A DNA stretch of 64,000 nt, taken from assembly GCF_055900595.2 (NCBI RefSeq), contig NZ_CM148325.1. One strand, written 5' to 3'. Positions 10,910 to 38,597 of this stretch are shown in pieces. A program made the translations under genes and the position numbers. The notes beneath the pieces were generated by a model, which worked only from the letters and a program-made list of their open reading frames with translations, was not told where the DNA came from and did not search any database. Numbering within the stretch: position 1 is the first letter of the stretch; the number at the start of each line of letters is the position of its first letter.

Positions 10910-11029
10910 TGTCTGGCGGCAGTAGCGCGGTGGTCCCACCTGACCCCATGCCGAACTCAGAAGTGAAACGCCGTAGCGCCGATGGTAGTGTGGGGTCTCC
11001 CCATGCGAGAGTAGGGAACTGCCAGACAT
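10910..11029 (+). rRNA. rrfF: 5S ribosomal RNA (second, distal copy)
   Basis: TGTCTGGCGGCAGTAGCGCGGTGG...GGAACTGCCAGACAT; 120 nt; differs from the first copy by paired changes in helix I. Confidence 0.95.
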
Positions 11030-11042
11030 CAAATAAAACAAA

Positions 11043-11074
11043 AGGCTCAGTCGGAAGACTGGGCCTTTTGTTTT
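11043..11074 (+). terminator. rRNA operon terminator T1 (Rho-independent hairpin plus T-tract)
   Basis: AGGCTCAGTCGGAAGACTGGGCCT stem-loop followed by TTTTGTTTT. Confidence 0.85.
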
Positions 11075-11210
11075 ATCTGTTGTTTGTCGGTGAACACTCT
11101 CCCGAGTAGGACAAATCCGCCGGGAGCGGATTTGAACGTTGCGAAGCAACGGCCCGGAGGGTGGCGGGCAGGACGCCCGCCATAAACTGCCAGACATCAA
11201 ATCAAGCGAA

Positions 11211-11237
11211 AGGCCATCCGAAAGGATGGCCTTTTTG
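11211..11237. terminator. rRNA operon terminator T2, probably also terminating convergent yhdZ
   Basis: AGGCCATCCGAAAGGATGGCCT hairpin followed by TTTTTGCTTTT; yhdZ ends about 20 nt further on. Confidence 0.8.
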
Positions 11238-11257
11238 CTTTTCGAACTTACATTCAA

Positions 11258-27169: not shown

Positions 27170-28180
27170 TCAGTGCTGCCGCAAAAAGTCTTCAATGTCA
27201 GTCAGTGAGGATACCCCTTCCATCGGACCTTGTCGCATTACGGCGAGCGCGCCGCTGGCATTTGCATATTGCAGCGCCTTGTGTGCCGGGATACCGGATA
27301 AGAAAAGAGTGACAAACGTTGCGCCAAAGCAGTCGCCTGCACCCGTTGGATCGATTATTTCGATATCGTGGCCTGCAACATGCTGGGCGTGTAATGTTCC
27401 GTTTTTAAGCTTGTAATAGCTGGCCCCACGCTGGGCGCGTTTTATCGCCACATGTTTTACGCCGCCGTGGAGAAGATCGCTAACAATCTGTTCTTCTGAC
27501 AGATTTTTGTGACGCGCGAAGAAAGGGAGTTCGCTTTCGCTGGGGATAAAAATATCCGTATATTCAATCAAATAATCGAGAGCCTGCGCCATTTCAGGAA
27601 TACTCAGCATCTCTTTGCGAATATTGGGATCGAAAGAAACGGTGCCGCCAGCCGATTTGATCGTCGTTATTGCTTTACGCATGACATCGATCATGCGAAA
27701 TGAGAACAATGATGAGCCCACAATATGCAGATGGTTACACTGTTTTAGCAGATCCTTATCAATGTGCTCGGCAGTAAACAAACCGCAGGCGCTGTTAGGG
27801 ATATTAAAGACGAAATCCCGCTGCTGGGGATTTTGATAACTCACGAATGCCGTACCTGTTACGGCATTGTTCATAACATGGATCCCATCGGTAATGACAC
27901 CTTCATGACGGAGGCGCTCTATAATGAGTCGGCCAAAATCATCATTACCAACACATCCGAAGAAGATGGCCCGATGGGACAGTTTTGCCACCTGAGCAGC
28001 AAAAATTGCTGGTGCACCGCTGGGAAATGGCCCGATAAACTCCCCAGGCTGAGTGAATTTTTGATGTGGGTTGCGGGACAAAAACTCGGCCAGCAATTCG
28101 CCCATAGCGCAGATAGTTATTGTCACAAAACCCCTCTCATTCCTGAAGCCTTTCGCGATTGGACCAGGTAAAGCACTCAT
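27170..28180 (-). CDS. PfkB-family carbohydrate kinase (island kinase A)
   Basis: 336-aa ORF; PfkB signature DPTGAGDCFG and the GG dipeptide region; paralogous to 33661-34623; true start may lie at an internal GTG or ATG 18-25 codons downstream (alignment with the paralog starts near TITICAMGELL). Confidence 0.85.
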   Translation of the reverse strand: MSALPGPIAKGFRNERGFVTITICAMGELLAEFLSRNPHQKFTQPGEFIGPFPSGAPAIFAAQVAKLSHRAIFFGCVGNDDFGRLIIERLRHEGVITDGIHVMNNAVTGTAFVSYQNPQQRDFVFNIPNSACGLFTAEHIDKDLLKQCNHLHIVGSSLFSFRMIDVMRKAITTIKSAGGTVSFDPNIRKEMLSIPEMAQALDYLIEYTDIFIPSESELPFFARHKNLSEEQIVSDLLHGGVKHVAIKRAQRGASYYKLKNGTLHAQHVAGHDIEIIDPTGAGDCFGATFVTLFLSGIPAHKALQYANASGALAVMRQGPMEGVSSLTDIEDFLRQH

Positions 28181-28967
28181 TACTGGTATAAAGGATAACG
28201 AAATCAGCCGACTGCAATTGTTGCTGATATTGTTCGTTAATGCTGCGGCTGACGATCACATTTTCTGCCTGATGCAAATGTCCAATGGCAGCCGTTGATG
28301 GCGCAGGATCGGCGGCAACGATAACTGTCTTATTCTGGGCATGATCGAAACAGAGCTGCCAGGCAGCGGCAAGTCTGGGAACGTTGATATTTAAAGTACC
28401 ATCAGCATCCAGATGGCTGATTTCCAGAATGCTGTGTGTAATGGTGAAATGCTGAAGTGCCTGTTCGAGCGGTTTTCCGGCCAGTGCGGTGTCGGGGCGC
28501 AGCATTTCACTGCCAGCCAGTATTATTTCGCCATCAATAAACTGATTTGCCAGCAGCGCATGTTCGGGATCGTTGGTGATCAGACGCAGTTTTTTCACTT
28601 CGCTGAGCAATGGAATGATCTTACGGCAGATTGTCCCATGTCCAAGAAATAGCGTGTCACGATCGCGAATTAACCGTGCGCAATGTCGTGCTATTTCCAT
28701 TTGTTGTGCCAGAGACAATGGCGCGATCGGTTGTATCGCTTCTGGTTCAGAGGAGAGGGGGGTCGCAATAGCACCGCCAAATGATCGCTTTAAATATCCC
28801 TGTTGCTCCAGATAACTGAGATCGCCGCGGATCGTCACGCCAGAGACACCAAGTTGCGCAGATAAGTCATCAACTTTGATTTCACCCTGGGCGGCAACAA
28901 TTTCTGCAATTTTTAATCTGCGTTTCAGTAGGTTAGACGATTTTCTCGGCACGTTAACACTCTTCAT
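28137..28967 (-). CDS. DeoR-family transcriptional regulator
   Basis: 276 aa; N-terminal DeoR-type winged HTH (RRLKIAEIVAAQGEIKVDDLSAQLGVSGVTIRGDLSYLEQQGYL), C-terminal sugar-phosphate-binding-like domain; upstream of kinase A and divergent from the aldolase-transporter operon. Confidence 0.85.
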   Translation of the reverse strand: MKSVNVPRKSSNLLKRRLKIAEIVAAQGEIKVDDLSAQLGVSGVTIRGDLSYLEQQGYLKRSFGGAIATPLSSEPEAIQPIAPLSLAQQMEIARHCARLIRDRDTLFLGHGTICRKIIPLLSEVKKLRLITNDPEHALLANQFIDGEIILAGSEMLRPDTALAGKPLEQALQHFTITHSILEISHLDADGTLNINVPRLAAAWQLCFDHAQNKTVIVAADPAPSTAAIGHLHQAENVIVSRSINEQYQQQLQSADFVILYTSNECFTWSNRERLQE

Positions 28968-29281
28968 TGGCCTTTAATGCGTAACACTATAGCCCCTTGT
29001 ATTTTTCTTTGAAAGTTATCCTTCAATAATATCGACAATTCGAAAAGGAAATCATGGGCCAGAAATCGCAACGAAAATAGCTTAATGCATTGAAAAATAG
29101 ATGAATTAATTCATATTTATGCAGAGGTGTTATTGGTTTCACTTGCAAAGTGAAAAACAAATTAAGTTATTTTTTGTAAGTTATTTTGATGATATTCGAC
29201 ATGTATCACGCTTTTTACCGCTTTTGCTGTGCTAGTTTGCTTTCAAAATGAAAGTGAAGATTCTCTTTCTTCATTTTGTAA

Positions 29282-30163
<882 letters not shown>

Positions 30164-30198
30164 GACGTTGTACCCTACAAAAACAATGAGGATTGTTT

Positions 30199-31089
30199 AT
30201 GAAAAATATTAAATTACTTGGTTCCGCTATGATGGTGAGCCTGGCATTGTTCTCGCAAAGTTCATTGGCAAAAGAGTATAAAATTGGAGCTTCATTATTA
30301 ACACAGCAACACCCTTTTTATATCGACCTCGCAAATGCAATGAAAGAAGAGGCGAAAAAAGACAATGTCAATTTAAGTGTCTCTATTGCCAATCAGGATT
30401 TAAACAAACAGCTTTCTGATGTTGAGGATTTTATTACTAAAAAGGTAGATGCCATTATTATCTCTCCGGTCGATTCGAAAGGTGTCCAGGCAGCGATAAT
30501 TAAAGCCGATAAGGCTGGTATTCCCGTTATCACCGTTGACGTTGCCGCGGAAGGCGTTCCGGTCGTATCGCATGTTGCGACCGATAATTACGCGGGTGGC
30601 GTTGAAGCTGGTAAGTTAATGGGCAAACTTTTGAATGGTAAAGGTACTGTAGCCATTATTTCTTATCCTGCACTACAATCGGTGGTTGCACGCGTTGATG
30701 GCTTTAAGAAAGGATTAAGCGATACGCCGGATATTAAAATTGTTGCTGAACAGCCGGGTATAACGCGGGCTGAAGCGTTAACGACTGCGCAAAACATTAT
30801 GCAGGCCAACGCCAACCTGAATGGTCTGTTTGGCTTTGGTGATGATGCGGCGCTGGCGGCGGTTATAGCGGCGAAATCTGCGCATAACGACAACATCAAA
30901 ATCATTGGTTTTGATGGTATGAAAGAAGCGCGAGATGCCGTTGATAGTGAAAAAACGTTTGCGGCCGTGATTCGGCAATATCCCGATCAAATGGGTGCTA
31001 AAGCCATTGATGCCGCTGTTGATCACCTCAATGGTAAACCGGTAGAGAAAATGATCCCGGTACAACCCGGCGTTTATACAGGTAAATAA
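30199..31089 (+). CDS. periplasmic sugar-binding protein of ABC transporter (RbsB-like)
   Basis: ATG at 30199 with GAGGA Shine-Dalgarno; signal peptide MKNIKLLGSAMMVSLALFSQSSLA then KEYKIGAS...; the track ORF starts 2 codons upstream at an alternative codon. Confidence 0.85.
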   Translation: MKNIKLLGSAMMVSLALFSQSSLAKEYKIGASLLTQQHPFYIDLANAMKEEAKKDNVNLSVSIANQDLNKQLSDVEDFITKKVDAIIISPVDSKGVQAAIIKADKAGIPVITVDVAAEGVPVVSHVATDNYAGGVEAGKLMGKLLNGKGTVAIISYPALQSVVARVDGFKKGLSDTPDIKIVAEQPGITRAEALTTAQNIMQANANLNGLFGFGDDAALAAVIAAKSAHNDNIKIIGFDGMKEARDAVDSEKTFAAVIRQYPDQMGAKAIDAAVDHLNGKPVEKMIPVQPGVYTGK

Positions 31090-31104
31090 TAAACATCTTC
31101 ATTT

Positions 31105-31135
31105 CACAACAAAACGTTATCGACGTTTTGTTGTG
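31105..31135 (+). other. intercistronic stem-loop between binding-protein and ATPase genes
   Basis: 13-bp perfect inverted repeat CACAACAAAACGT / ACGTTTTGTTGTG with a 5-nt loop, read directly. Confidence 0.7.
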
Positions 31136-31149
31136 ACACCGAGGTCATT

Positions 31150-32649
31150 ATGACGGATGTTATTCTTGATGTTTCGCATATTGCGAAGACATTTGGTCAT
31201 GTTCAGGCATTAAAAGATATTACACTCTCTTTACGTAAAGGGCGGGTACATACTTTATTAGGTGAGAATGGTGCCGGTAAATCGACATTAATGAAAATAT
31301 TGGCCGGTGTTTATCCGCCAACCCAGGGAACAATAAAACTACGTGGTGAAACTATCACAATTAATAATCCGCAGCATTCACGTCAGTTAGGGATTGCTAT
31401 TATTTTTCAGGAACTGAGCCTGAGTAATAATATGACAGTGGCGGAAAATATTTATGCCAATAATGAACCGCGACGTTTTGGCATTATTAACGATAAAAAA
31501 ATGCTCGCAGATTGCCAGAATCTCCTCGCGGAACTGGGCATCCCACTGGATCCGCTGGAAATGGTCGGCAATATGTCGATGGCACATAGGCAACTGGTAG
31601 AAATTGCCAAAGCCTTAAGCTATGCAGCAGATGTCGTGATTATGGATGAACCGACATCTTCGCTAAGTGATAATGAAGCAGAGATTCTGTTTAACATTAT
31701 TGAGAAATTAAAGCAGCGAGGTTGTGCGGTTATTTATATCTCTCATCGCATGGATGAAATTATGCGGATTTCAGATGATATTTCGGTGATCCGCGACGGT
31801 GAGTATATCGCTACGCATGAAAAGAAAAACAGTGATATCCAGCATTTGATTGCCCAAATGGTTGGTCGGGAAATGAAAAATATTTGGCCAGCACGTCTTG
31901 GGGAAAAGCCGGATGAAAATGTTCCTGCAAAACTGGAAGTAAAAAACCTTTCCCATCCTTCGCTTTTTAAAGAGGTCAGTTTCGCTGTGCGTCCGGGGGA
32001 AGTCCTCGGATTTTTTGGCCTGGTGGGGGCCGGGCGTTCCGATGTGATGAAGGCGCTATTTGGCCTCGTTTCGTATCACGGGACTGTGTTGATTGATGGT
32101 AAGGAAGTCAGGATCGCTAATCCCAAACAGGCTATTGATCATGGCATTGCTTTTGTGACCGAAAACCGCAAGGAAGAAGGGTTAGTGCTGATGCACGACG
32201 TCAATATGAACACGCACCATGTGGCGTTTCAATATAACGCTTCGCGGATGGGACTCATCAATCACCGACAAGAAGAGGCGAAGACGCTGCAATCTATTGC
32301 CAGAATGAACACTAAAGTGAGTTCTGTACATCAGGCAGTGGGAGCGCTGAGCGGCGGTAATCAACAGAAAATCGTGTTATCCAAGTGGCTGGAGAAAACT
32401 CCGCGTATTTTATTGCTCGATGAGCCAACGCGCGGAGTGGATGTCGGCGCAAAATTTGAAATCTATAACGTGATACGTCAACTGGCTGCGGCAGGGACAG
32501 CAATTATTCTGGTGTCCTCTGAACTGCCAGAGGTCATGGCACTTAGCGATCGTCTGGTGGTAATGCGTAATAAAACGATTGCCGATATTTATTCATGTGA
32601 AAATTTAACGCAGACACAGGTAATGACCGCTGCAACAGGAGTACGTTAA
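31150..32649 (+). CDS. sugar ABC transporter ATP-binding protein with tandem ABC domains (CUT2 type, RbsA-like)
   Basis: 499 aa; Walker A GENGAGKST (N-domain) and GLVGAGRS (C-domain), signature LSGGNQQK, Walker B LLLDEPTRGVD. Confidence 0.9.
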   Translation: MTDVILDVSHIAKTFGHVQALKDITLSLRKGRVHTLLGENGAGKSTLMKILAGVYPPTQGTIKLRGETITINNPQHSRQLGIAIIFQELSLSNNMTVAENIYANNEPRRFGIINDKKMLADCQNLLAELGIPLDPLEMVGNMSMAHRQLVEIAKALSYAADVVIMDEPTSSLSDNEAEILFNIIEKLKQRGCAVIYISHRMDEIMRISDDISVIRDGEYIATHEKKNSDIQHLIAQMVGREMKNIWPARLGEKPDENVPAKLEVKNLSHPSLFKEVSFAVRPGEVLGFFGLVGAGRSDVMKALFGLVSYHGTVLIDGKEVRIANPKQAIDHGIAFVTENRKEEGLVLMHDVNMNTHHVAFQYNASRMGLINHRQEEAKTLQSIARMNTKVSSVHQAVGALSGGNQQKIVLSKWLEKTPRILLLDEPTRGVDVGAKFEIYNVIRQLAAAGTAIILVSSELPEVMALSDRLVVMRNKTIADIYSCENLTQTQVMTAATGVR

Positions 32650-33639
32650 ATGACAGAGAAAACTCTTGCCAGTCCGAAACCTTCGGAAATTCCCATTGCA
32701 AATAATTTTAAAAAAGTCTTCAGGCAATATGGCGGTATCCTCAGTGGAATGGTGGTGTTAATCATTCTGTTCAGTCTTATTAATGACAGTTTTTTTACTG
32801 CCAATAACATTACTAATATTATTCTTCAGGTTTCGATAATTGCAATTACCGCCTATGGAATGACTTATGTACTTTTGCTTGGCGATATTGATTTATCAGT
32901 CGGTTCAACCATTGCATTGATTGGCACATTTGCTGCGCTTGGGGCTTCATGGGGAATTCCATTTATTTTATTGGTCCCATTATCCATTATTGCAGCCCTG
33001 GCTCTGGGGATGATAAATGGTGGCTTGACGGCTATAGCGGGTATCCCTTCGTTTATTGTCACCGTTGCTACAATGGGGATCTTCCGTGGTATCGCTTATA
33101 TAGTGACCGATGGTATGCCCATCATGATTAAAGATGATGCCTTTCTGGCGCTGGGGAATGGAGAATTTCTCTATATACCTATTCCTATCTGGATATTAAT
33201 CATCTTATTGCTGATTAACCACTTCATTCTTACTAAAACAACCTTTGGACGAAAAATTTATATCACTGGTGGTAATAAAGAAGCGGCAGTTTATTCAGGG
33301 ATAAATGTCACCCGCTTGAAAATTAAAGTCTTTATGATTACTGCAGTGCTGGCAGGTATCAGCGGGATGATCCTCGCCTCACGCCTCTATTCCGGGCAAC
33401 CGAATTCCGCGTTGAGCTACGAACTGGATGCTATTGCCGCGGCTGTACTGGGAGGCACCAGCCTGAACGGCGGCTATGGAACGGTGGTGGGGACGGTAAT
33501 CGGGGCATTAACCATCGGCGTTATTAATAATGGCATGAACTTAATGAACGTTCCCTATTTCTATCAGATGGTGGTTAAAGGATTAGTCATTCTTGTAGCC
33601 GTTTATTTTGACGTAAGAAATAAAAGAAAACGTAGCTAA
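32650..33639 (+). CDS. sugar ABC transporter permease (RbsC-like)
   Basis: 329-aa hydrophobic multi-pass protein; the ATG directly abuts the ATPase stop (TAAATG). Confidence 0.88.
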   Translation: MTEKTLASPKPSEIPIANNFKKVFRQYGGILSGMVVLIILFSLINDSFFTANNITNIILQVSIIAITAYGMTYVLLLGDIDLSVGSTIALIGTFAALGASWGIPFILLVPLSIIAALALGMINGGLTAIAGIPSFIVTVATMGIFRGIAYIVTDGMPIMIKDDAFLALGNGEFLYIPIPIWILIILLLINHFILTKTTFGRKIYITGGNKEAAVYSGINVTRLKIKVFMITAVLAGISGMILASRLYSGQPNSALSYELDAIAAAVLGGTSLNGGYGTVVGTVIGALTIGVINNGMNLMNVPYFYQMVVKGLVILVAVYFDVRNKRKRS

Positions 33640-33660
33640 TCATTTCAAGGAATTAATTAT

Positions 33661-34623
33661 ATGAGTAAGGTCTTCACAATTGGAGAAATTCTGGTTGAAA
33701 TTATGGCGAGTAAAATCGGCCAGCCATTTGATCAACCAGGTATCTGGAACGGCCCTTATCCCAGTGGTGCGCCCGCTATTTTTATCGACCAGGTGACACG
33801 TCTTGGTGTTCCGTGCGGCATCATTAGCTGTGTGGGGAATGATGGCTTTGGTGATATTAATATACATCGTCTGGCTGCTGATGGTGTGGATATCAGGGGG
33901 ATTTCAGTCTTACCTCTGGAAGCCACCGGGAGTGCCTTTGTTACTTATCATAACTCTGGCGATCGCGATTTTATTTTTAATATCAAGAATGCCGCTTGCG
34001 GTAAATTATCGGCGCAGCATGTTGATGAAAATATACTGAAAGACTGTACCCATTTTCATATTATGGGCTCATCCCTGTTTTCATTTCATATGGTAGACGC
34101 AGTAAAAAAAGCAGTAACCATCGTTAAAGCAAATGGTGGCGTTATTTCTTTCGACCCGAATATTCGTAAAGAGATGCTCGATATTCCAGAAATGCGTGAC
34201 GCCCTCCACTTTGTTCTTGAGTTAACAGATATCTATATGCCCAGCGAGGGAGAAGTGTTGCTCTTGTCGCCACACTCGACACCGGAGCGTGCAATCGCTG
34301 GTTTTCTTGAAGAAGGTGTTAAAGAGGTGATTGTGAAGCGCGGCAATCAAGGTGCCAGTTACTACTCCGCGAATGAGCAGTTTCATGTTGAGAGCTATCC
34401 GGTGGAAGAAGTTGACCCGACCGGTGCGGGAGACTGCTTTGGTGGCGCGTGGATTGCCTGCCGCCAGCTAGGGTTTGACGCCCATCGGGCATTACAATAT
34501 GCCAACGCCTGCGGTGCACTGGCGGTAACCCGACGTGGCCCAATGGAGGGAACGTCTCGCCTTGCGGAAATCGAAGCGTTCATCCAGCGCCATGACATGT
34601 CCATTCGGGAAGCAGCACAATGA
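33661..34623 (+). CDS. PfkB-family carbohydrate kinase (island kinase B)
   Basis: 320 aa; DPTGAGDCFG signature; shares long identical stretches with kinase A (PYPSGAPAIF, GSSLFSF, SFDPNIRKEML, ALQYANA, GPMEG). Confidence 0.9.
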   Translation: MSKVFTIGEILVEIMASKIGQPFDQPGIWNGPYPSGAPAIFIDQVTRLGVPCGIISCVGNDGFGDINIHRLAADGVDIRGISVLPLEATGSAFVTYHNSGDRDFIFNIKNAACGKLSAQHVDENILKDCTHFHIMGSSLFSFHMVDAVKKAVTIVKANGGVISFDPNIRKEMLDIPEMRDALHFVLELTDIYMPSEGEVLLLSPHSTPERAIAGFLEEGVKEVIVKRGNQGASYYSANEQFHVESYPVEEVDPTGAGDCFGGAWIACRQLGFDAHRALQYANACGALAVTRRGPMEGTSRLAEIEAFIQRHDMSIREAAQ

Positions 34624-35666
34624 AAAACGAAATTTGGTCGTGGATTGGCGATCTCTCGCAGGTTGCCGGAATTAAACACTATGAGTTACGCAGTGGCAGA
34701 TCAAAGGGGACAGAAGCGTTTGATGTCCGTACTGGTGCGGGATTGGCATTTACGGTGGTAAAAGATCGCGCGCTGGATATTGCATGGGCCAGCTACAAGG
34801 ACACTGCGCTCTCTTTTATCACCCCCAACGGCATTGTCGCCCCCGCTTTTTTTGAGTCTCAGGGCAACGGGTTTTTACGTAGCTTCTACGCGGGGTTACT
34901 GACTACCTGCGGACTTAGCTACATTGGCACGCCCTGTGAGGATAACGGAGAAACGCTGGGGTTACACGGGCGTTTGGCTGCGACTCCAGCAGAAGAGGTG
35001 GGGTATCGCACAGAACGGACCGACGACGGCATTGAATTTGTCATCAATGGCAAAGTACGGGAAACACGATTGTTCGGTGAAAATCTGACGCTGGAAAGGA
35101 CCATTCGCTGCCGTTATGGCGAAAATGTGCTGCGCATTGAAGACAAGGTGACTAATCATGGTTTCACCCGCCAGCCGCTGCAAATTCTTTATCACTTTAA
35201 TTACGGCTGGCCTTTATTATCGCCACAGGCAGAAATCTTGCTGTCGGCTAAAAGCGTAACGCCACGAACCCCGCATGCGGCGGAAGGGTTAACCAGTCAT
35301 CTGGAGATTTGTACCCCACAGCCCAGTTTTGACGAGCAGGTTTACTATCTCACGTTGAATAGCGACAGTCAGGGGATGAGTAAAGTTGCGCTGGTGAACG
35401 CCGAACTGGGGTGGGGAATTTACGAGAAATTCGACACCATGCAGCTACCCAACTTTATCCAGTGGAAAAATTTAGGCGCGGGTGAATATGTTATGGGGCT
35501 GGAGGTCAGCAATAGTTTTCCTGACGGTCGTGATAAAGAACGAGCGCAGGGGCGTCTGCCCTTTATAGAGCCAGGGGAAACAAAGACATACTGCTTTGAG
35601 CTGGGAATTGTTGATGGCGATGCTGAAATTAGCGCGTTGAAAGCGGAAATTGCAAGCTACCGTTAG
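34620..35666 (+). CDS. conserved protein of unknown function; possibly an aldose-epimerase-like fold (DUF4432-type), not verified
   Basis: 348-aa ORF whose ATG overlaps the kinase B stop (ATGA); no recognisable catalytic motif by eye; the family assignment is a guess from memory. Confidence 0.6.
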   Translation: MKNEIWSWIGDLSQVAGIKHYELRSGRSKGTEAFDVRTGAGLAFTVVKDRALDIAWASYKDTALSFITPNGIVAPAFFESQGNGFLRSFYAGLLTTCGLSYIGTPCEDNGETLGLHGRLAATPAEEVGYRTERTDDGIEFVINGKVRETRLFGENLTLERTIRCRYGENVLRIEDKVTNHGFTRQPLQILYHFNYGWPLLSPQAEILLSAKSVTPRTPHAAEGLTSHLEICTPQPSFDEQVYYLTLNSDSQGMSKVALVNAELGWGIYEKFDTMQLPNFIQWKNLGAGEYVMGLEVSNSFPDGRDKERAQGRLPFIEPGETKTYCFELGIVDGDAEISALKAEIASYR

Positions 35667-35682
35667 CTAACGGCAATAAAAA

Positions 35683-35709
35683 CGCCGGGCAGCGTTAACA
35701 GGCCCGGCG
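35683..35709. terminator. hairpin between the convergent island operon and accC; likely bidirectional terminator
   Basis: CGCCGGGC / GCCCGGCG inverted repeat, an A-tract on one side and TT on the other. Confidence 0.6.
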
Positions 35710-35757
35710 TTGATTACGTTCTTTGCTAAGCGCGATGAAAACACCGCGCGTCACAAA

Positions 35758-37107
35758 TTATTTTTCCTGAAGACCGAGTTTTTTCTCCAGATAGTGGATG
35801 TTAGTGCCACCATGCTGGAAGTTCTCGTCATTCATGATGCGGATCTGCAGATCAACGTTGGTTTTGATACCGTCGATGATCAGCTCCTGCAGCGCATTCT
35901 TCATGCGGGCAATCGCCACGTCACGGTTTTCACCGTAGCAAATCAGCTTACCGATCATTGAGTCATAGTACGGCGGTACGGTGTAGCCCGCGTAGATATG
36001 AGACTCCCAACGCACGCCAAAACCGCCAGGTGCATGGAAACGGGTGATTTTGCCCGGGCTTGGCAGGAAGGTGTTAGGATCCTCGGCGTTAATACGGCAT
36101 TCCACCGCATGGCCGCGAACGTGAACTTCTTCTTGCTTGATCGACAGCGGCTGACCAGCAGCAATACGCAGTTGTTCTTTGATCAGGTCAACACCGGTGA
36201 TCATTTCAGTAACCGGGTGTTCTACCTGAATACGGGTGTTCATTTCGATGAAATAGAACTCGCCGTTTTCGAACAGAAACTCGAAAGTACCTGCACCGCG
36301 ATAGCCGATATCAACACACGCTTTAGCACAACGTTCACCGATGTAGCGACGCAGTTCCGGGGTAATGCCCGGTGCTGGCGCTTCTTCGACCACTTTCTGG
36401 TGACGACGCTGCATAGAGCAGTCACGTTCCGCCAGATAGATAGCGTTGCCCTGACCGTCCGCCAGTACCTGGATCTCGACGTGGCGAGGATTTTCCAGGT
36501 ATTTCTCCATGTAAACCATGTCGTTATTGAAAGCGGCTTTCGCTTCCGCACGGGTCATGGAGATGGATTGCGCCAGTTCAGCGTCGCCGCGTACTACACG
36601 CATACCACGACCGCCGCCGCCGCCGGAGGCTTTGATAATCACCGGGTAACCAATGCGTTTTGCAATGGCGCGGTTTTTATCCATATCGTCGCCCAGCGGG
36701 CCGTCAGAACCTGGTACGCAAGGAACGCCCGCTTTTTTCATCGCCGCGATTGCTGATACTTTATCGCCCATCAGGCGAATGGTTTCGGCTTTCGGGCCGA
36801 TGAAGATAAAGCCGGAGCGTTCAACCTGCTCGGCAAAATTGGCGTTCTCGGAGAGGAAGCCGTAACCCGGATGGATTGCTACTGCGCCGGTGATTTCAGC
36901 GGCGCTGATGATTGCCGGGATGTTCAGATAACTTTTTACTGACGGAGCAGGGCCGATACAGACCGTTTCGTCTGCCAGTAATACGTGTTTTAGATCGCGA
37001 TCCGCACTGGAGTGCACAGCGACAGTCTTGATGCCCAGTTCTTTACAGGCACGAAGAATACGCAATGCAATCTCGCCGCGGTTGGCAATAACAATTTTAT
37101 CCAGCAT
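35758..37107 (-). CDS. accC: biotin carboxylase subunit of acetyl-CoA carboxylase
   Basis: 449 aa from [33 protein letters not shown]; the track ORF carries a 13-codon upstream extension. Confidence 0.97.
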
Positions 37108-37117
37108 GTTCGCCTCG

Positions 37118-37588
37118 TTACTCGATGACGACCAGCGGCTCGTCAAATTCTACCGGTTGTCCACTTTCGACCAGAATTGCTTTCACGGTACCGGATTTGT
37201 CCGCTTCGATCTGGTTCATCATTTTCATGGCTTCAACGATGCACAGGGTATCGCCCACGTTGACTTTCTGACCCACTTCGATGAACGCTTTTGCGTCCGG
37301 GCTTGGGGTGCGGTAGAAAGTACCAACCATCGGGGAACGTACGATGTGACCACTGATTTCCGCTGCTGCTGGCGCTTCCATGGAAGGAACGGTCGCCGGA
37401 GCGGCTGCGTTAGATTGAGCTGGCTGCTGCATCATTGGTGCAGCGTAAGCTTGTTGCATCACAGGGAAACTTGCGGCAGGAGCTGCACGGCTGATGCGTA
37501 CTGACTCTTCGCCTTCGGAGATTTCCAGTTCGGAGATGCCTGATTCTTCAACCAGCTCGATCAGTTTTTTAATCTTACGAATATCCAT
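37118..37588 (-). CDS. accB: biotin carboxyl carrier protein
   Basis: 156 aa; Ala/Pro-rich linker and biotinylation motif EAMKM. Confidence 0.97.
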
Positions 37589-38597
37589 GAGTGGGTTCCG
37601 TACTCTTTGTTTAGTGTGATTGTGACAGGCGTTTCACCGCCGTCTGTAAAGCGTATGCCCCGACAGCTGTATGCATAGCGATAAATTCCAGCAGGCCGGG
37701 ACGCCGGTCTATTTTGCCCCAGAGTGTCAATGTTTAGACTTGACGGACATTGTGCAGCGATCTGCTGCTATCCTCCGGCAAAAAACAAAATATACCTTCG
37801 TTGCGCCAATGTCACCTTTTCCGCAGCGCAAAAACTGCGTCAGGGAGGACGAGGTCGCACATTATAACGATTTCGTAGCAATTGGCAGCTAAATACTGGT
37901 CTTATCAGGGAAGATAATCAACAGCTAACATGTAAATAACCTTCAACACCGTGTAATTTGCAACAAGCCGCACAATTCACGAAATTAGCGCTATCGTCGA
38001 CGGAACTTCTTATAACGTAAGGCTAAAAGCTGTAAAGCCAGCTCTGCGAAGATGAGGGGCTGCAATGAGATGATCCTCACAGACCACAAATAATGTAGGG
38101 TTGCCAGGATCGCGACAAGATAGACGACATTACGCAGCGGTTGCTGGGGATTACTCAATTTTCACGGCATCGTCCGGATAGACGTCAATGCTAAAGCACG
38201 CAAAATCAACAAACTGACAATGCTCAGCATCAAATAGTTTTGAGTGGTTAATTTATAATCTAATAAAATCAGATTATTCACCCCTGGGATCAGAGTTAAG
38301 GTACAGATTAAGCGTAGCGTCACCCAGGCAAAGCGCCTTAAACCTAACAGACGACGGGACGTATCAATAATGACTATTTAGTGGAGTATCAAGGGTGTTT
38401 TCCACCGTTTGGTGACCCGTATCAATGCGCATCAATTTATGGTCAGTCGAAATCATGACTTTCCAGTTTGGATTATGTTGTACAACTTTCTGACCAAGGT
38501 GTTCGACGAAAGCTGTCCGGCTAACCGCTTTTCCCGTTAATCGATGGAATAATGATTTCAAAATGAGTTCCCTCTCTTATTAATCCTTGCTAAATGG

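What the first reader, a model, noticed from the sequence alone, without database searches (positions are those of the whole stretch)
35661..35709. Palindrome and hairpin at the right-hand island junction
Directly after the last island gene there is a 12-bp perfect palindrome CGTTAGCTAACG (35661-35672) spanning the stop codon, then an A-tract and the CGCCGGGC/GCCCGGCG hairpin that probably terminates accBC on the other strand. Comparing this junction with the K-12 accC-yhdT intergenic region would show where the insertion point lies and whether the terminator is ancestral or was brought in with the island.
Basis: seen in the sequence. Interest (0 to 1): 0.3.

Follow-up and report, generated by a model that had tools for sequence, protein, structure and literature searches.

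The report
Island-linked terminator hairpin downstream of accC
The hairpin is an ordinary transcription stop signal for the essential accBC genes that came in together with a known 8.7-kb sugar-utilisation island and replaced the ancestral stop signal, and the neighbouring palindrome is a chance sequence.

Summary
The palindrome is in fact 14 bp (CCGTTAGCTAACGG, 35660-35673). It is no more frequent than chance and is not conserved, even within E. coli.

The hairpin (35681-35711, 10-bp stem) is real. On the minus strand it is followed by UUUUUAUU, 46 nt after the accC stop. It is conserved in eight island-bearing sequences from at least three genera, and 4 of its 10 pairs carry compensatory changes. 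It is the intrinsic terminator of accBC.

It is not the ancestral terminator. About 65 island-free Enterobacterales species, K-12 included, share a 108-bp accC-yhdT spacer with the terminator AAAAGGCCGG-N5-CCGGCCTTTTTT. In island-bearing genomes similarity to K-12 stops exactly at the accC stop codon (35758) and the yhdT start codon (27077).

The island (27078-35757) is the known CFT073 c4013-c4018 region (GR 23 of strain BEN2908). It has no integrase, tRNA or flanking repeats. It sits at the same site in Citrobacter farmeri, Superficieibacter and Trabulsiella.

This is an ordinary finding. The one minor curiosity is a second hairpin between accC and the terminator.

The parts
35681..35711 (-). 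Intrinsic terminator hairpin of accBC. The stem is 35702-35711 paired with 35681-35690 (AACGCCGGGC / GCCCGGCGUU), with an 11-nt loop.
   Evidence: Fold -20.8 kcal/mol, z -3.8. The lower stem is conserved in eight island-bearing sequences, and 4 of 10 pairs carry compensatory changes.
35675..35682 (-). U-tract (UUUUUAUU) following the hairpin on the accC strand.
   Evidence: Sequence. A T-run on the accC strand is present in every island-bearing lineage examined.
35660..35673 (.). 14-bp perfect palindrome CCGTTAGCTAACGG spanning the TAG stop (35664-35666). It is a chance feature and not part of the terminator.
   Evidence: Its frequency equals chance. It is broken by a G>A change in CFT073 and Ecol_732, lacks 4 bp in E69, and is absent in C. 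farmeri and Superficieibacter.
35722..35757 (.). Second hairpin between the accC stop and the terminator. The inner stem is 35730-35737 paired with 35742-35749 (GCGCGGUG-UUUU-CAUCGCGC on the minus strand). A weak outer stem pairs 35722-35726 with 35753-35757. Its role is unknown. It may be the plus-strand terminator of the island operon, using UUAUUUUUCC, the complement of accC's last codons.
   Evidence: The 106-nt spacer folds at -45.9 kcal/mol, z -4.5. A hairpin is present at this position in 7 of 8 island-bearing lineages although the sequences cannot be aligned.
35758..37107 (-). accC (biotin carboxylase). Its stop codon at 35758-35760 is the right-hand limit of similarity to island-free genomes.
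   Evidence: PGAP annotation of a strain identical over the 301-bp junction query. The megablast break is at query base 199, which is window 35758.
34620..35666 (+). Last island gene: aldose 1-epimerase family / DUF4432 protein (c4013 of CFT073), convergent with accC.
   Evidence: PF14486; CDD Aldose_epim_Ec_c4013.
27078..35757 (.). The segment that replaces the ancestral 108-bp accC-yhdT spacer. It holds an 8-gene sugar uptake and catabolism island plus both junction spacers.
   Evidence: GC content is 46.1% against about 50% in the flanks.
27078..27169 (-). Left junction: the island-type upstream region of yhdT (TTGCCGTAGAATTGCCCGTTTCT...AGGAGGA...GTG). It is shared with C. farmeri and Trabulsiella and is not significantly similar to the K-12 spacer.
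   Evidence: Identity between E. coli and C. farmeri is 90% here, against 77-85% in neighbouring genes.
26835..27077 (-). yhdT. It has a GTG start in island-bearing alleles where K-12 has ATG. This is the left-hand limit of similarity to island-free genomes.

Best explanation
The hairpin at 35681-35711, with its minus-strand U-tract at 35675-35682, is the Rho-independent terminator of the accB-accC operon in genomes that carry the accC-yhdT sugar island. RNA polymerase leaving accC transcribes a 46-nt spacer, then the 10-bp GC-rich stem, then UUUUUAUU, and releases the transcript just before it would run antisense into the island's last gene. This terminator is not the ancestral accC terminator. 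The ancestral 108-bp spacer held the terminator AAAAGGCCGG-N5-CCGGCCTTTTTT and the yhdT upstream box TACAATCCCCGCTTTCT. That whole spacer is replaced by 8,680 bp, and the new terminator is part of the replacing segment, so it travels with the island. The anatomy, the conservation, the covariation and the absence of the ancestral sequence are shown here. Termination itself, and the order of historical events, are inferred. The 14-bp palindrome over the stop codon is a chance by-product of a lineage-specific 4-bp indel and has no role.
For: Anatomy: the 10-bp stem folds at -20.8 kcal/mol with z = -3.8, followed by UUUUUAUU on the accC strand. The built-in consensus scan flags a minus-strand terminator-like site here, though it used a shorter alternative stem because its loop limit is 8. 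Population: 1,414 of 5,425 E. coli genomes carry this junction. In all the others the match stops at window 35758, the accC stop, and at 27076-27077, the yhdT start. There is a median of one copy per genome. Ancestral state: 67 species from Escherichia to Yersinia have a 93-115-bp spacer. Of these, 65 hold GGCCGG-N-CCGGCCTTT and 66 hold the TACAATCCCC box. Linkage to the island: the same gene order lies between accC and yhdT in C. farmeri and Superficieibacter and next to accC in the Logan contigs L093-L095; L092 was not gene-called there, but its downstream sequence reads as the complement of the accC 3' end. The lower stem ACGCCGG/CCGGCGU plus a T-run on the accC strand is kept in eight sequences. 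Compensatory G-C to A-U changes occur at four stem positions. No homology to the ancestral spacer: Smith-Waterman against K-12 gives p = 0.10 for the right junction and 0.20 for the left against shuffles. A profile of 67 ancestral spacers scores the hairpin at E = 6.6, worse than unrelated terminators elsewhere in the window.
Against: No transcript 3' end was measured. The 11-nt loop is long for a canonical terminator, and CFT073-type alleles lose the top pair. Two island variants use a different terminator sequence: Trabulsiella, which lacks the epimerase, and L095. So the hairpin is linked to one form of the island's right end, not to every form. The short shared string CCGGC-TTTTT(T)ATT means very distant homology with the ancestral terminator cannot be formally excluded.
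Confidence: 0.85

Rival explanations
1. The hairpin is a bidirectional terminator that stops both convergent units, accBC on the minus strand and the island operon on the plus strand. This does not exclude the main explanation.
For: It lies between two convergent stop codons, 16 nt after the epimerase stop. It has an A-tract on its plus-strand 5' side, as bidirectional terminators do, and it folds equally well on the plus strand at -20.0 kcal/mol.
Against: On the plus strand the stem is followed by UUGAUUACG in E. coli, UUUAACG in C. farmeri and UUAAUCAG in Superficieibacter. That is only 2-3 U in every lineage, so no U-tract is conserved on that side. The consensus scan reports nothing on the plus strand here.
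Confidence: 0.3
2. The hairpin is the ancestral accC terminator, strongly diverged in place. The island would then have inserted downstream of it, between the terminator and the yhdT promoter.
For: Both terminators share a GCCGG/CCGGC core and TTTTT(T)ATT after the stem. The left junction has a loose resemblance to the ancestral yhdT box: GTAGAATTGCCCGTTTCT against GTACAATCCCCGCTTTCT.
Against: The resemblances are not significant (p = 0.10 and 0.20). The ancestral-spacer profile scores unrelated terminators in the window higher than this one, and does not report the left junction of the window at E <= 100. The ancestral terminator is nearly invariant from Escherichia to Yersinia, in 65 of 67 species. 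In-place divergence to this degree would therefore be exceptional. The flanking accC sequence is 100% identical to island-free strains over its last 103 bp. The spacing also differs, 46 nt against 18 nt from the stop.
Confidence: 0.1
3. The palindrome and the hairpin mark the end of a mobile element: an attachment site, a terminal inverted repeat, or a REP-like element.
For: The position is at an island boundary. A 9-bp inverted match, ATTGCCGTT, occurs just outside both terminal stop codons at 27162-27170 and 35669-35677.
Against: The 9-bp match is within chance (p = 0.12) and is not kept in C. farmeri. There is no tRNA. No integrase or transposase is among the eight annotated genes. The junction occurs at a median of one copy per genome. 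The palindrome is not conserved. Rfam gives no match.
Confidence: 0.03
4. The palindrome is a protein-binding site, for example an operator for the island's DeoR-type regulator, or a translational stop-codon hairpin.
For: It has perfect 14-bp dyad symmetry, and it forms a small stem on either strand.
Against: Its frequency is at chance level. CFT073 and Ecol_732 carry a G>A change that breaks it, E69 lacks 4 bp of it, and other genera have unrelated sequence there. It lies at the 3' end of the operon, far from the divergent promoter region at 28968-29308.
Confidence: 0.03

Closest known systems
Rho-independent (intrinsic) transcription terminators of Enterobacteria
   Same: It has a GC-rich stem-loop followed directly by a U-tract on the transcribed strand. 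It lies a few tens of nt after the stop codon of the last gene of an operon. The stem is maintained by compensatory changes.
   Different: The loop is rather long at 11 nt. The hairpin sits between convergent genes but has a U-tract on one side only.
The K-12-type accC terminator (AAAAGGCCGG-N5-CCGGCCTTTTTT), conserved from Escherichia to Yersinia
   Same: It has the same job at the same locus, downstream of accC, and a similar short GCCGG/CCGGC core.
   Different: The sequence is different, with no significant alignment. It lies 46 nt rather than 18 nt from the stop. It lacks the A-tract/U-tract symmetry of the K-12 terminator. It occurs only in island-bearing genomes.
The CFT073 c4013-c4018 gene set (SAC No. 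8, PMC2831201), also listed as GR 23 accC..yhdT of strain BEN2908 (PMC12928451)
   Same: It is the same island, with the same flanking genes and the same size. GR 23 spans 3563686..3572367, about 8.68 kb.
   Different: The passages retrieved from those papers (term searches, not full readings) list gene content and distribution. They do not mention the junctions, the replaced spacer or the terminators.

Membership tests
Intrinsic (Rho-independent) terminator | Stable GC-rich stem-loop in the transcript | tested here: met
   10-bp stem with 8 G-C pairs, -20.8 kcal/mol, z = -3.8.
Intrinsic (Rho-independent) terminator | U-rich tract immediately 3' of the stem on the transcribed strand | tested here: met
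   UUUUUAUU on the minus (accC) strand. A T-run is present on that strand in every lineage.
Intrinsic (Rho-independent) terminator | Position downstream of the last gene of a transcription unit | tested here: met
   The stem starts 46 nt after the accC stop, and accB-accC are co-oriented upstream.
Intrinsic (Rho-independent) terminator | Structure conserved by compensatory substitutions | tested here: met
   4 of 10 pairs show changes on both sides among 8 sequences.
Intrinsic (Rho-independent) terminator | Transcript 3' ends map to the U-tract | not testable with these tools
   This needs Term-seq, 3' RACE or a reporter assay.
Bidirectional terminator | U-tract after the stem on both strands (A-tract 5' and U-tract 3') | tested here: not met
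   The plus-strand tail is UUGAUUACG, with 2-3 U only in all genera.
Ancestral K-12-type accC terminator | Sequence homology to AAAAGGCCGG-N5-CCGGCCTTTTTT and its flanks | tested here: not met
   p = 0.10 against shuffles. The profile gives E = 6.6, below unrelated terminators. Megablast breaks at the accC stop codon.
Mobile genomic island (integrative element) | Integrase or transposase, tRNA target, flanking direct repeats | tested here: not met
   There are no such genes and no tRNA. The longest direct match between the junctions is 7 bp and the longest inverted match is 9 bp, p = 0.12.
REP/BIME or other dispersed repeat | Multiple copies per genome | tested here: not met
   There is a median of one place per genome across 5,425 genomes. 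Of the two 8-mer arms, CGCCGGGC has three other copies and GCCCGGCG one other copy in the window, but they lie adjacent as a hairpin only here.
Known RNA family (Rfam) | Match to a curated covariance model | tested here: not met
   No match at E <= 1 in 26700-38200.

The most novel reading that the evidence does not exclude
The accC-epimerase spacer may be a back-to-back pair of one-way terminators that evolved because the island created convergent transcription into an essential operon. Hairpin 2 (35681-35711) would stop accBC. Hairpin 1 (35722-35757) would stop the island operon, borrowing its U-tract (UUAUUUUUCC) from the complement of accC's last codons GAA-AAA-TAA. Together with the swapped yhdT upstream region, this would make the island a self-contained cassette. 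The cassette would replace both regulatory ends of the ancestral spacer and would have persisted as a presence/absence polymorphism across at least four genera.
Probability: 0.25. Interest if true: 0.35.

Novelty: new member of a known kind. Interest (0 to 1): 0.15.

Why it matters
The practical value is small. The analysis gives an exact boundary for a known ExPEC-associated metabolic island. It shows that island carriage changes both the terminator of the essential accBC operon and the upstream region of yhdT-panF. That could matter for anyone comparing expression of these genes between K-12 and B2-type strains. It is also a clean example of an island that replaces a conserved intergenic region from one coding sequence to the next, and that sits at the same site in several genera without any mobility genes.

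Tried and rejected
1. I tested for a K-12 remnant by direct alignment, by Smith-Waterman with dinucleotide shuffles, and by an nhmmer profile of 67 ancestral spacers. None was significant. The eye-catching matches GTAGAATTGCCCGTTTCT / GTACAATCCCCGCTTTCT and CCGGC-TTTTTATT are therefore treated as unproven.

2. An Rfam scan of 26700-38200 at E <= 1 found nothing.

3. I looked for attachment-site or target-duplication repeats between the two junctions. Only a 9-bp inverted match turned up, at chance level.

4. A tRNA scan of 20000-42000 found none.

5. I looked for foreign, inter-genus sequence in the flanking genes. The window's yhdT is 96-97% identical to other Escherichia and 79-86% to other genera. 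The last approximately 230 bp of accC are identical to K-12. There is therefore no recombination tract from another genus.

6. I asked whether the epimerase travels with the hairpin at other loci. The closest homologues (81-85% identity) are all next to accC. The next tier (56%, P0016) lies in an unrelated context in an unidentified metagenome contig, and its downstream sequence was not examined. No donor locus was found.

7. A literature search for a described accBC terminator in island strains found nothing specific.

Full report
**Observation.** The window around 35661-35709 reads ...AGCTACCGTTAGCTAACGGCAATAAAAACGCCGGGCAGCGTTAACAGGCCCGGCGTTGATTACG....
- CGTTAGCTAACG is at 35661-35672. The TAG stop of the ORF 34620-35666 lies inside it.
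- The dyad extends one base on each side, giving the 14-bp palindrome CCGTTAGCTAACGG at 35660-35673.
- CGCCGGGC (35683-35690) and GCCCGGCG (35702-35709) are present. With the flanking A and T bases they form a 10-bp stem, 35681-35690 paired with 35702-35711.
- The palindrome is at chance level. The window holds 19 perfect 12-bp palindromes against 17.5 +/- 3.9 in Markov simulations, and four 14-bp ones.
- The hairpin is beyond chance. It is one of only two distinct GC-rich perfect 8-bp-stem hairpins in 64 kb; the scan lists three overlapping hits against 0.6 expected. It folds at -20.8 kcal/mol with z = -3.8.

**Context.** The window is E. coli. A strain identical over the 301-bp junction query is annotated by PGAP as follows, converted to window coordinates:

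| Gene or product | Coordinates | Strand |
|---|---|---|
| prmA, panF | left of yhdT | - |
| yhdT | 26835-27077 | - |
| sugar kinase | 27170-28105 | - |
| DeoR regulator | 28137-28967 | - |
| class II tagatose-bisphosphate aldolase | 29309-30163 | + |
| sugar-binding protein | 30199-31089 | + |
| ABC ATPase | 31150-32649 | + |
| permease | 32650-33639 | + |
| second sugar kinase | 33661-34623 | + |
| aldose 1-epimerase / DUF4432 protein | 34620-35666 | + |
| accC | 35758-37107 | - |
| accB | 37118-37588 | - |

The last island gene and accC are therefore convergent, separated by 91 bp. The island is already described. It is CFT073 c4013-c4018, 'SAC No. 8' of PMC2831201, and 'GR 23 accC..yhdT' (3563686..3572367) of strain BEN2908 in PMC12928451.

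**What the hairpin is.** On the minus (accC) strand the transcript reads, after the accC stop:
- a 46-nt spacer;
- then AACGCCGGGC-CUGUUAACGCU-GCCCGGCGUU;
- then UUUAUU, so the full run after the G-C core is UUUUUAUU.

That is the anatomy of a Rho-independent terminator. On the plus strand the same stem is followed by UUGAUUACG, which is a poor U-tract. The built-in consensus scan flags a minus-strand terminator-like site here and none on the plus strand.

**Comparison with K-12 and with E. coli at large.**
- In K-12 accC and yhdT are 108 bp apart. That spacer holds a different terminator, AAAAGGCCGGATTTTCCGGCCTTTTTT.
- Across 5,425 complete E. coli genomes there are two discrete classes. 1,414 carry the window's right junction over at least 80% of the query. 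In all the others the match begins at query base 199, which is window 35758, the last base of the accC stop codon.
- At the left junction 1,421 genomes carry the island type. In the others the match ends at query base 127, which is window 27076, inside the yhdT start codon. That codon is GTG here and ATG in K-12.
- So 8,680 bp (27078-35757) stand in place of the whole 108-bp spacer.

**Which state is ancestral.** A scan of one genome per species with YhdT returned 80 loci.
- In 67 of them accC and yhdT are 93-115 bp apart.
- 65 of these 67 hold the core GGCCGG-N-CCGGCCTTT, and 66 hold the TACAATCCCC box upstream of yhdT.
- The taxa include E. albertii, Salmonella, Citrobacter, Enterobacter, Kluyvera, Kosakonia and Yersinia.
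- The K-12-type spacer is therefore ancestral and strongly conserved.

**Is anything of the ancestral spacer left at the junctions?** Not detectably.
- Local alignment of the right spacer (35667-35757) against the K-12 spacer finds only CCGG-CGTTTTTATT, with p = 0.10 against dinucleotide shuffles. The left spacer (27078-27169) gives p = 0.20.
- An nhmmer profile built from the 67 ancestral spacers scores the window's hairpin region at E = 6.6 and C. farmeri's at E = 1.6. Unrelated terminators elsewhere in the window score better, for example 11013-11074 at E = 6e-4.
- The same profile does not report the window's left junction at all.
- The visible resemblance between GTAGAATTGCCCGTTTCT and the ancestral GTACAATCCCCGCTTTCT is suggestive only.

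**The hairpin travels with the island.**
- The same eight genes in the same order lie between accC and yhdT in Citrobacter farmeri (L083-L085) and Superficieibacter electus (L086, L087).
- They also do so in a divergent Escherichia lineage (L004) and, without the epimerase, in two Trabulsiella species (L059, L060).
- In unnamed Logan contigs the epimerase is followed by the accC 3' end, gene-called in L093-L095 and visible as sequence in L092.
- In E. coli, E69, C. farmeri, Superficieibacter, L092, L093 and L094 the lower stem ACGCCGG/CCGGCGU and a T-run on the accC strand are kept. The upper stem and the loop vary.
- RNAalifold on eight sequences predicts the same 10 pairs. Four pairs have changes on both sides that keep the pairing, for example G-C to A-U in E69, Superficieibacter and L093.
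- Trabulsiella and L095 use a different terminator of the type AAAAGGGAAGCGC...GCGCTTCCCTTTTTT. The right end of the island therefore exists in more than one form.

**The palindrome is not conserved.** CFT073 and Ecol_732 carry a G>A change inside it. E69 lacks 4 bp of it. C. farmeri and Superficieibacter have unrelated sequence there.

**There are no signs of a mobile element.**
- No integrase or transposase is present, and no tRNA.
- The best inter-junction matches are 7 bp direct and 9 bp inverted, with p = 0.12.
- The junction occurs at a median of one copy per genome, and Rfam gives no match.
- The flanking genes are native. yhdT is 96-97% identical to other Escherichia and 79-86% to other genera. 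The last approximately 230 bp of accC are identical to K-12.
- Island genes differ between E. coli, C. farmeri and Superficieibacter by about as much as the flanking core genes do: 76-82% against 80-85% for yhdT, panF and prmA. The island has therefore been at this site for a long time in these lineages. The history itself (one gain plus spread or loss by flanking homology) is inference.

**Mechanism and rivals.**
- Most likely (0.85): the hairpin is the accBC terminator of the island-type allele. It is functionally analogous to the ancestral terminator but not detectably homologous to it, and it came in as part of the segment that replaced the ancestral spacer.
- It may give some plus-strand termination as well (0.3), but no lineage has a proper U-tract on that side.
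- In-place divergence of the ancestral terminator (0.1), a mobile-element end (0.03) and a functional palindrome (0.03) are disfavoured, for the reasons given above.

**An unexplained extra.** Between the accC stop and the terminator, every epimerase-bearing lineage has a second hairpin.
- In the window it is GCGCGGUG-UUUU-CAUCGCGC, at 35730-35749, with a weak outer stem reaching 35722-35757.
- The sequences cannot be aligned between genera. Even so, the spacer folds better than shuffles in 7 of 8 lineages, with z from -2.1 to -3.9.
- The ancestral spacer has only 18 nt in this position.
- On the plus strand, in 5 of 8 lineages, this hairpin ends 0-1 nt before UUAUUUUUCC, the complement of accC's last codons.
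- It could therefore be the terminator of the island operon. In the other three lineages the gap is 7-13 nt, so this remains a hypothesis.

**Verdict.** The terminator reading is right. The palindrome is noise. This is an ordinary intrinsic terminator at the edge of a known island, and its interest is low.

Noticed in passing
window 35722-35757 (inner stem 35730-35749): A second hairpin lies between the accC stop and the terminator. It is present in 7 of 8 island-bearing lineages although the sequences cannot be aligned, and it is absent from the ancestral 18-nt spacer. On the plus strand it abuts UUAUUUUUCC, the complement of accC's last codons, in 5 of 8 lineages. It may be the terminator of the island operon.
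   Followed up: partly
window 27078-35757; L083-L087, L004, L059, L060: The same island sits between accC and yhdT in Citrobacter farmeri, Superficieibacter electus, a divergent Escherichia lineage (E69) and two Trabulsiella species. Its nucleotide divergence (76-82%) is close to that of the flanking core genes. No mobility genes are present.
   Followed up: partly
window 27075-27095: Island-type yhdT alleles start with GTG where island-free genomes have ATG. They all have an in-frame ATG six codons upstream: MRRTPS-V in E. coli, MIRKPS-V in C. farmeri, MKRTSS-M in Trabulsiella. The true start codon of YhdT in island strains may differ from the annotation.
   Followed up: no
window 27078-27169: The left junction spacer is 90% identical between E. 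coli and C. farmeri, higher than every other island segment and than yhdT, panF and prmA (77-85%), though below accB (94%). The shared block TTGCCGTAGAATTGCCCGTTTCT also occurs in Trabulsiella. It probably holds the replacement yhdT-panF promoter or 5' UTR.
   Followed up: partly
L059:2446-2487, L060:2446-2487, L095:2216-2293: Some island variants use a different terminator next to accC. Trabulsiella, which lacks the epimerase gene, has AAAAGGGAAGCGC...GCGCTTCCCTTTTTT. L095 has AAGGGAGGCC...CCTCCCTTTTTT.
   Followed up: partly
L076 (242-bp spacer), L017 (1.8 kb), L081 Yersinia pestis (1.36 kb), L032, L028, L079: Other species have unrelated insertions in the accC-yhdT spacer. L076 carries what looks like an ERIC/IRU element between the accC stop and the terminator. 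In Siccibacter the terminator loop is expanded. The spacer seems to tolerate insertions repeatedly.
   Followed up: no
window 27162-27170 and 35669-35677: A 9-bp inverted match, ATTGCCGTT / AACGGCAAT, lies just outside the stop codons of the two terminal island genes. It is within chance (p = 0.12) and is not kept in C. farmeri.
   Followed up: yes
E. coli genome collection: 1,421 genomes carry the left island junction but only 1,414 carry the right one. A few genomes may therefore have a rearranged or truncated right end of the island.
   Followed up: no
window 11013-11076 and 11206-11244: The profile of the ancestral accC-yhdT spacer picked up strong symmetric terminator-like hairpins here (AAAAGGCC...GGCCTTTT), with E = 6e-4 for the best. 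They are generic terminators unrelated to this locus.
   Followed up: no
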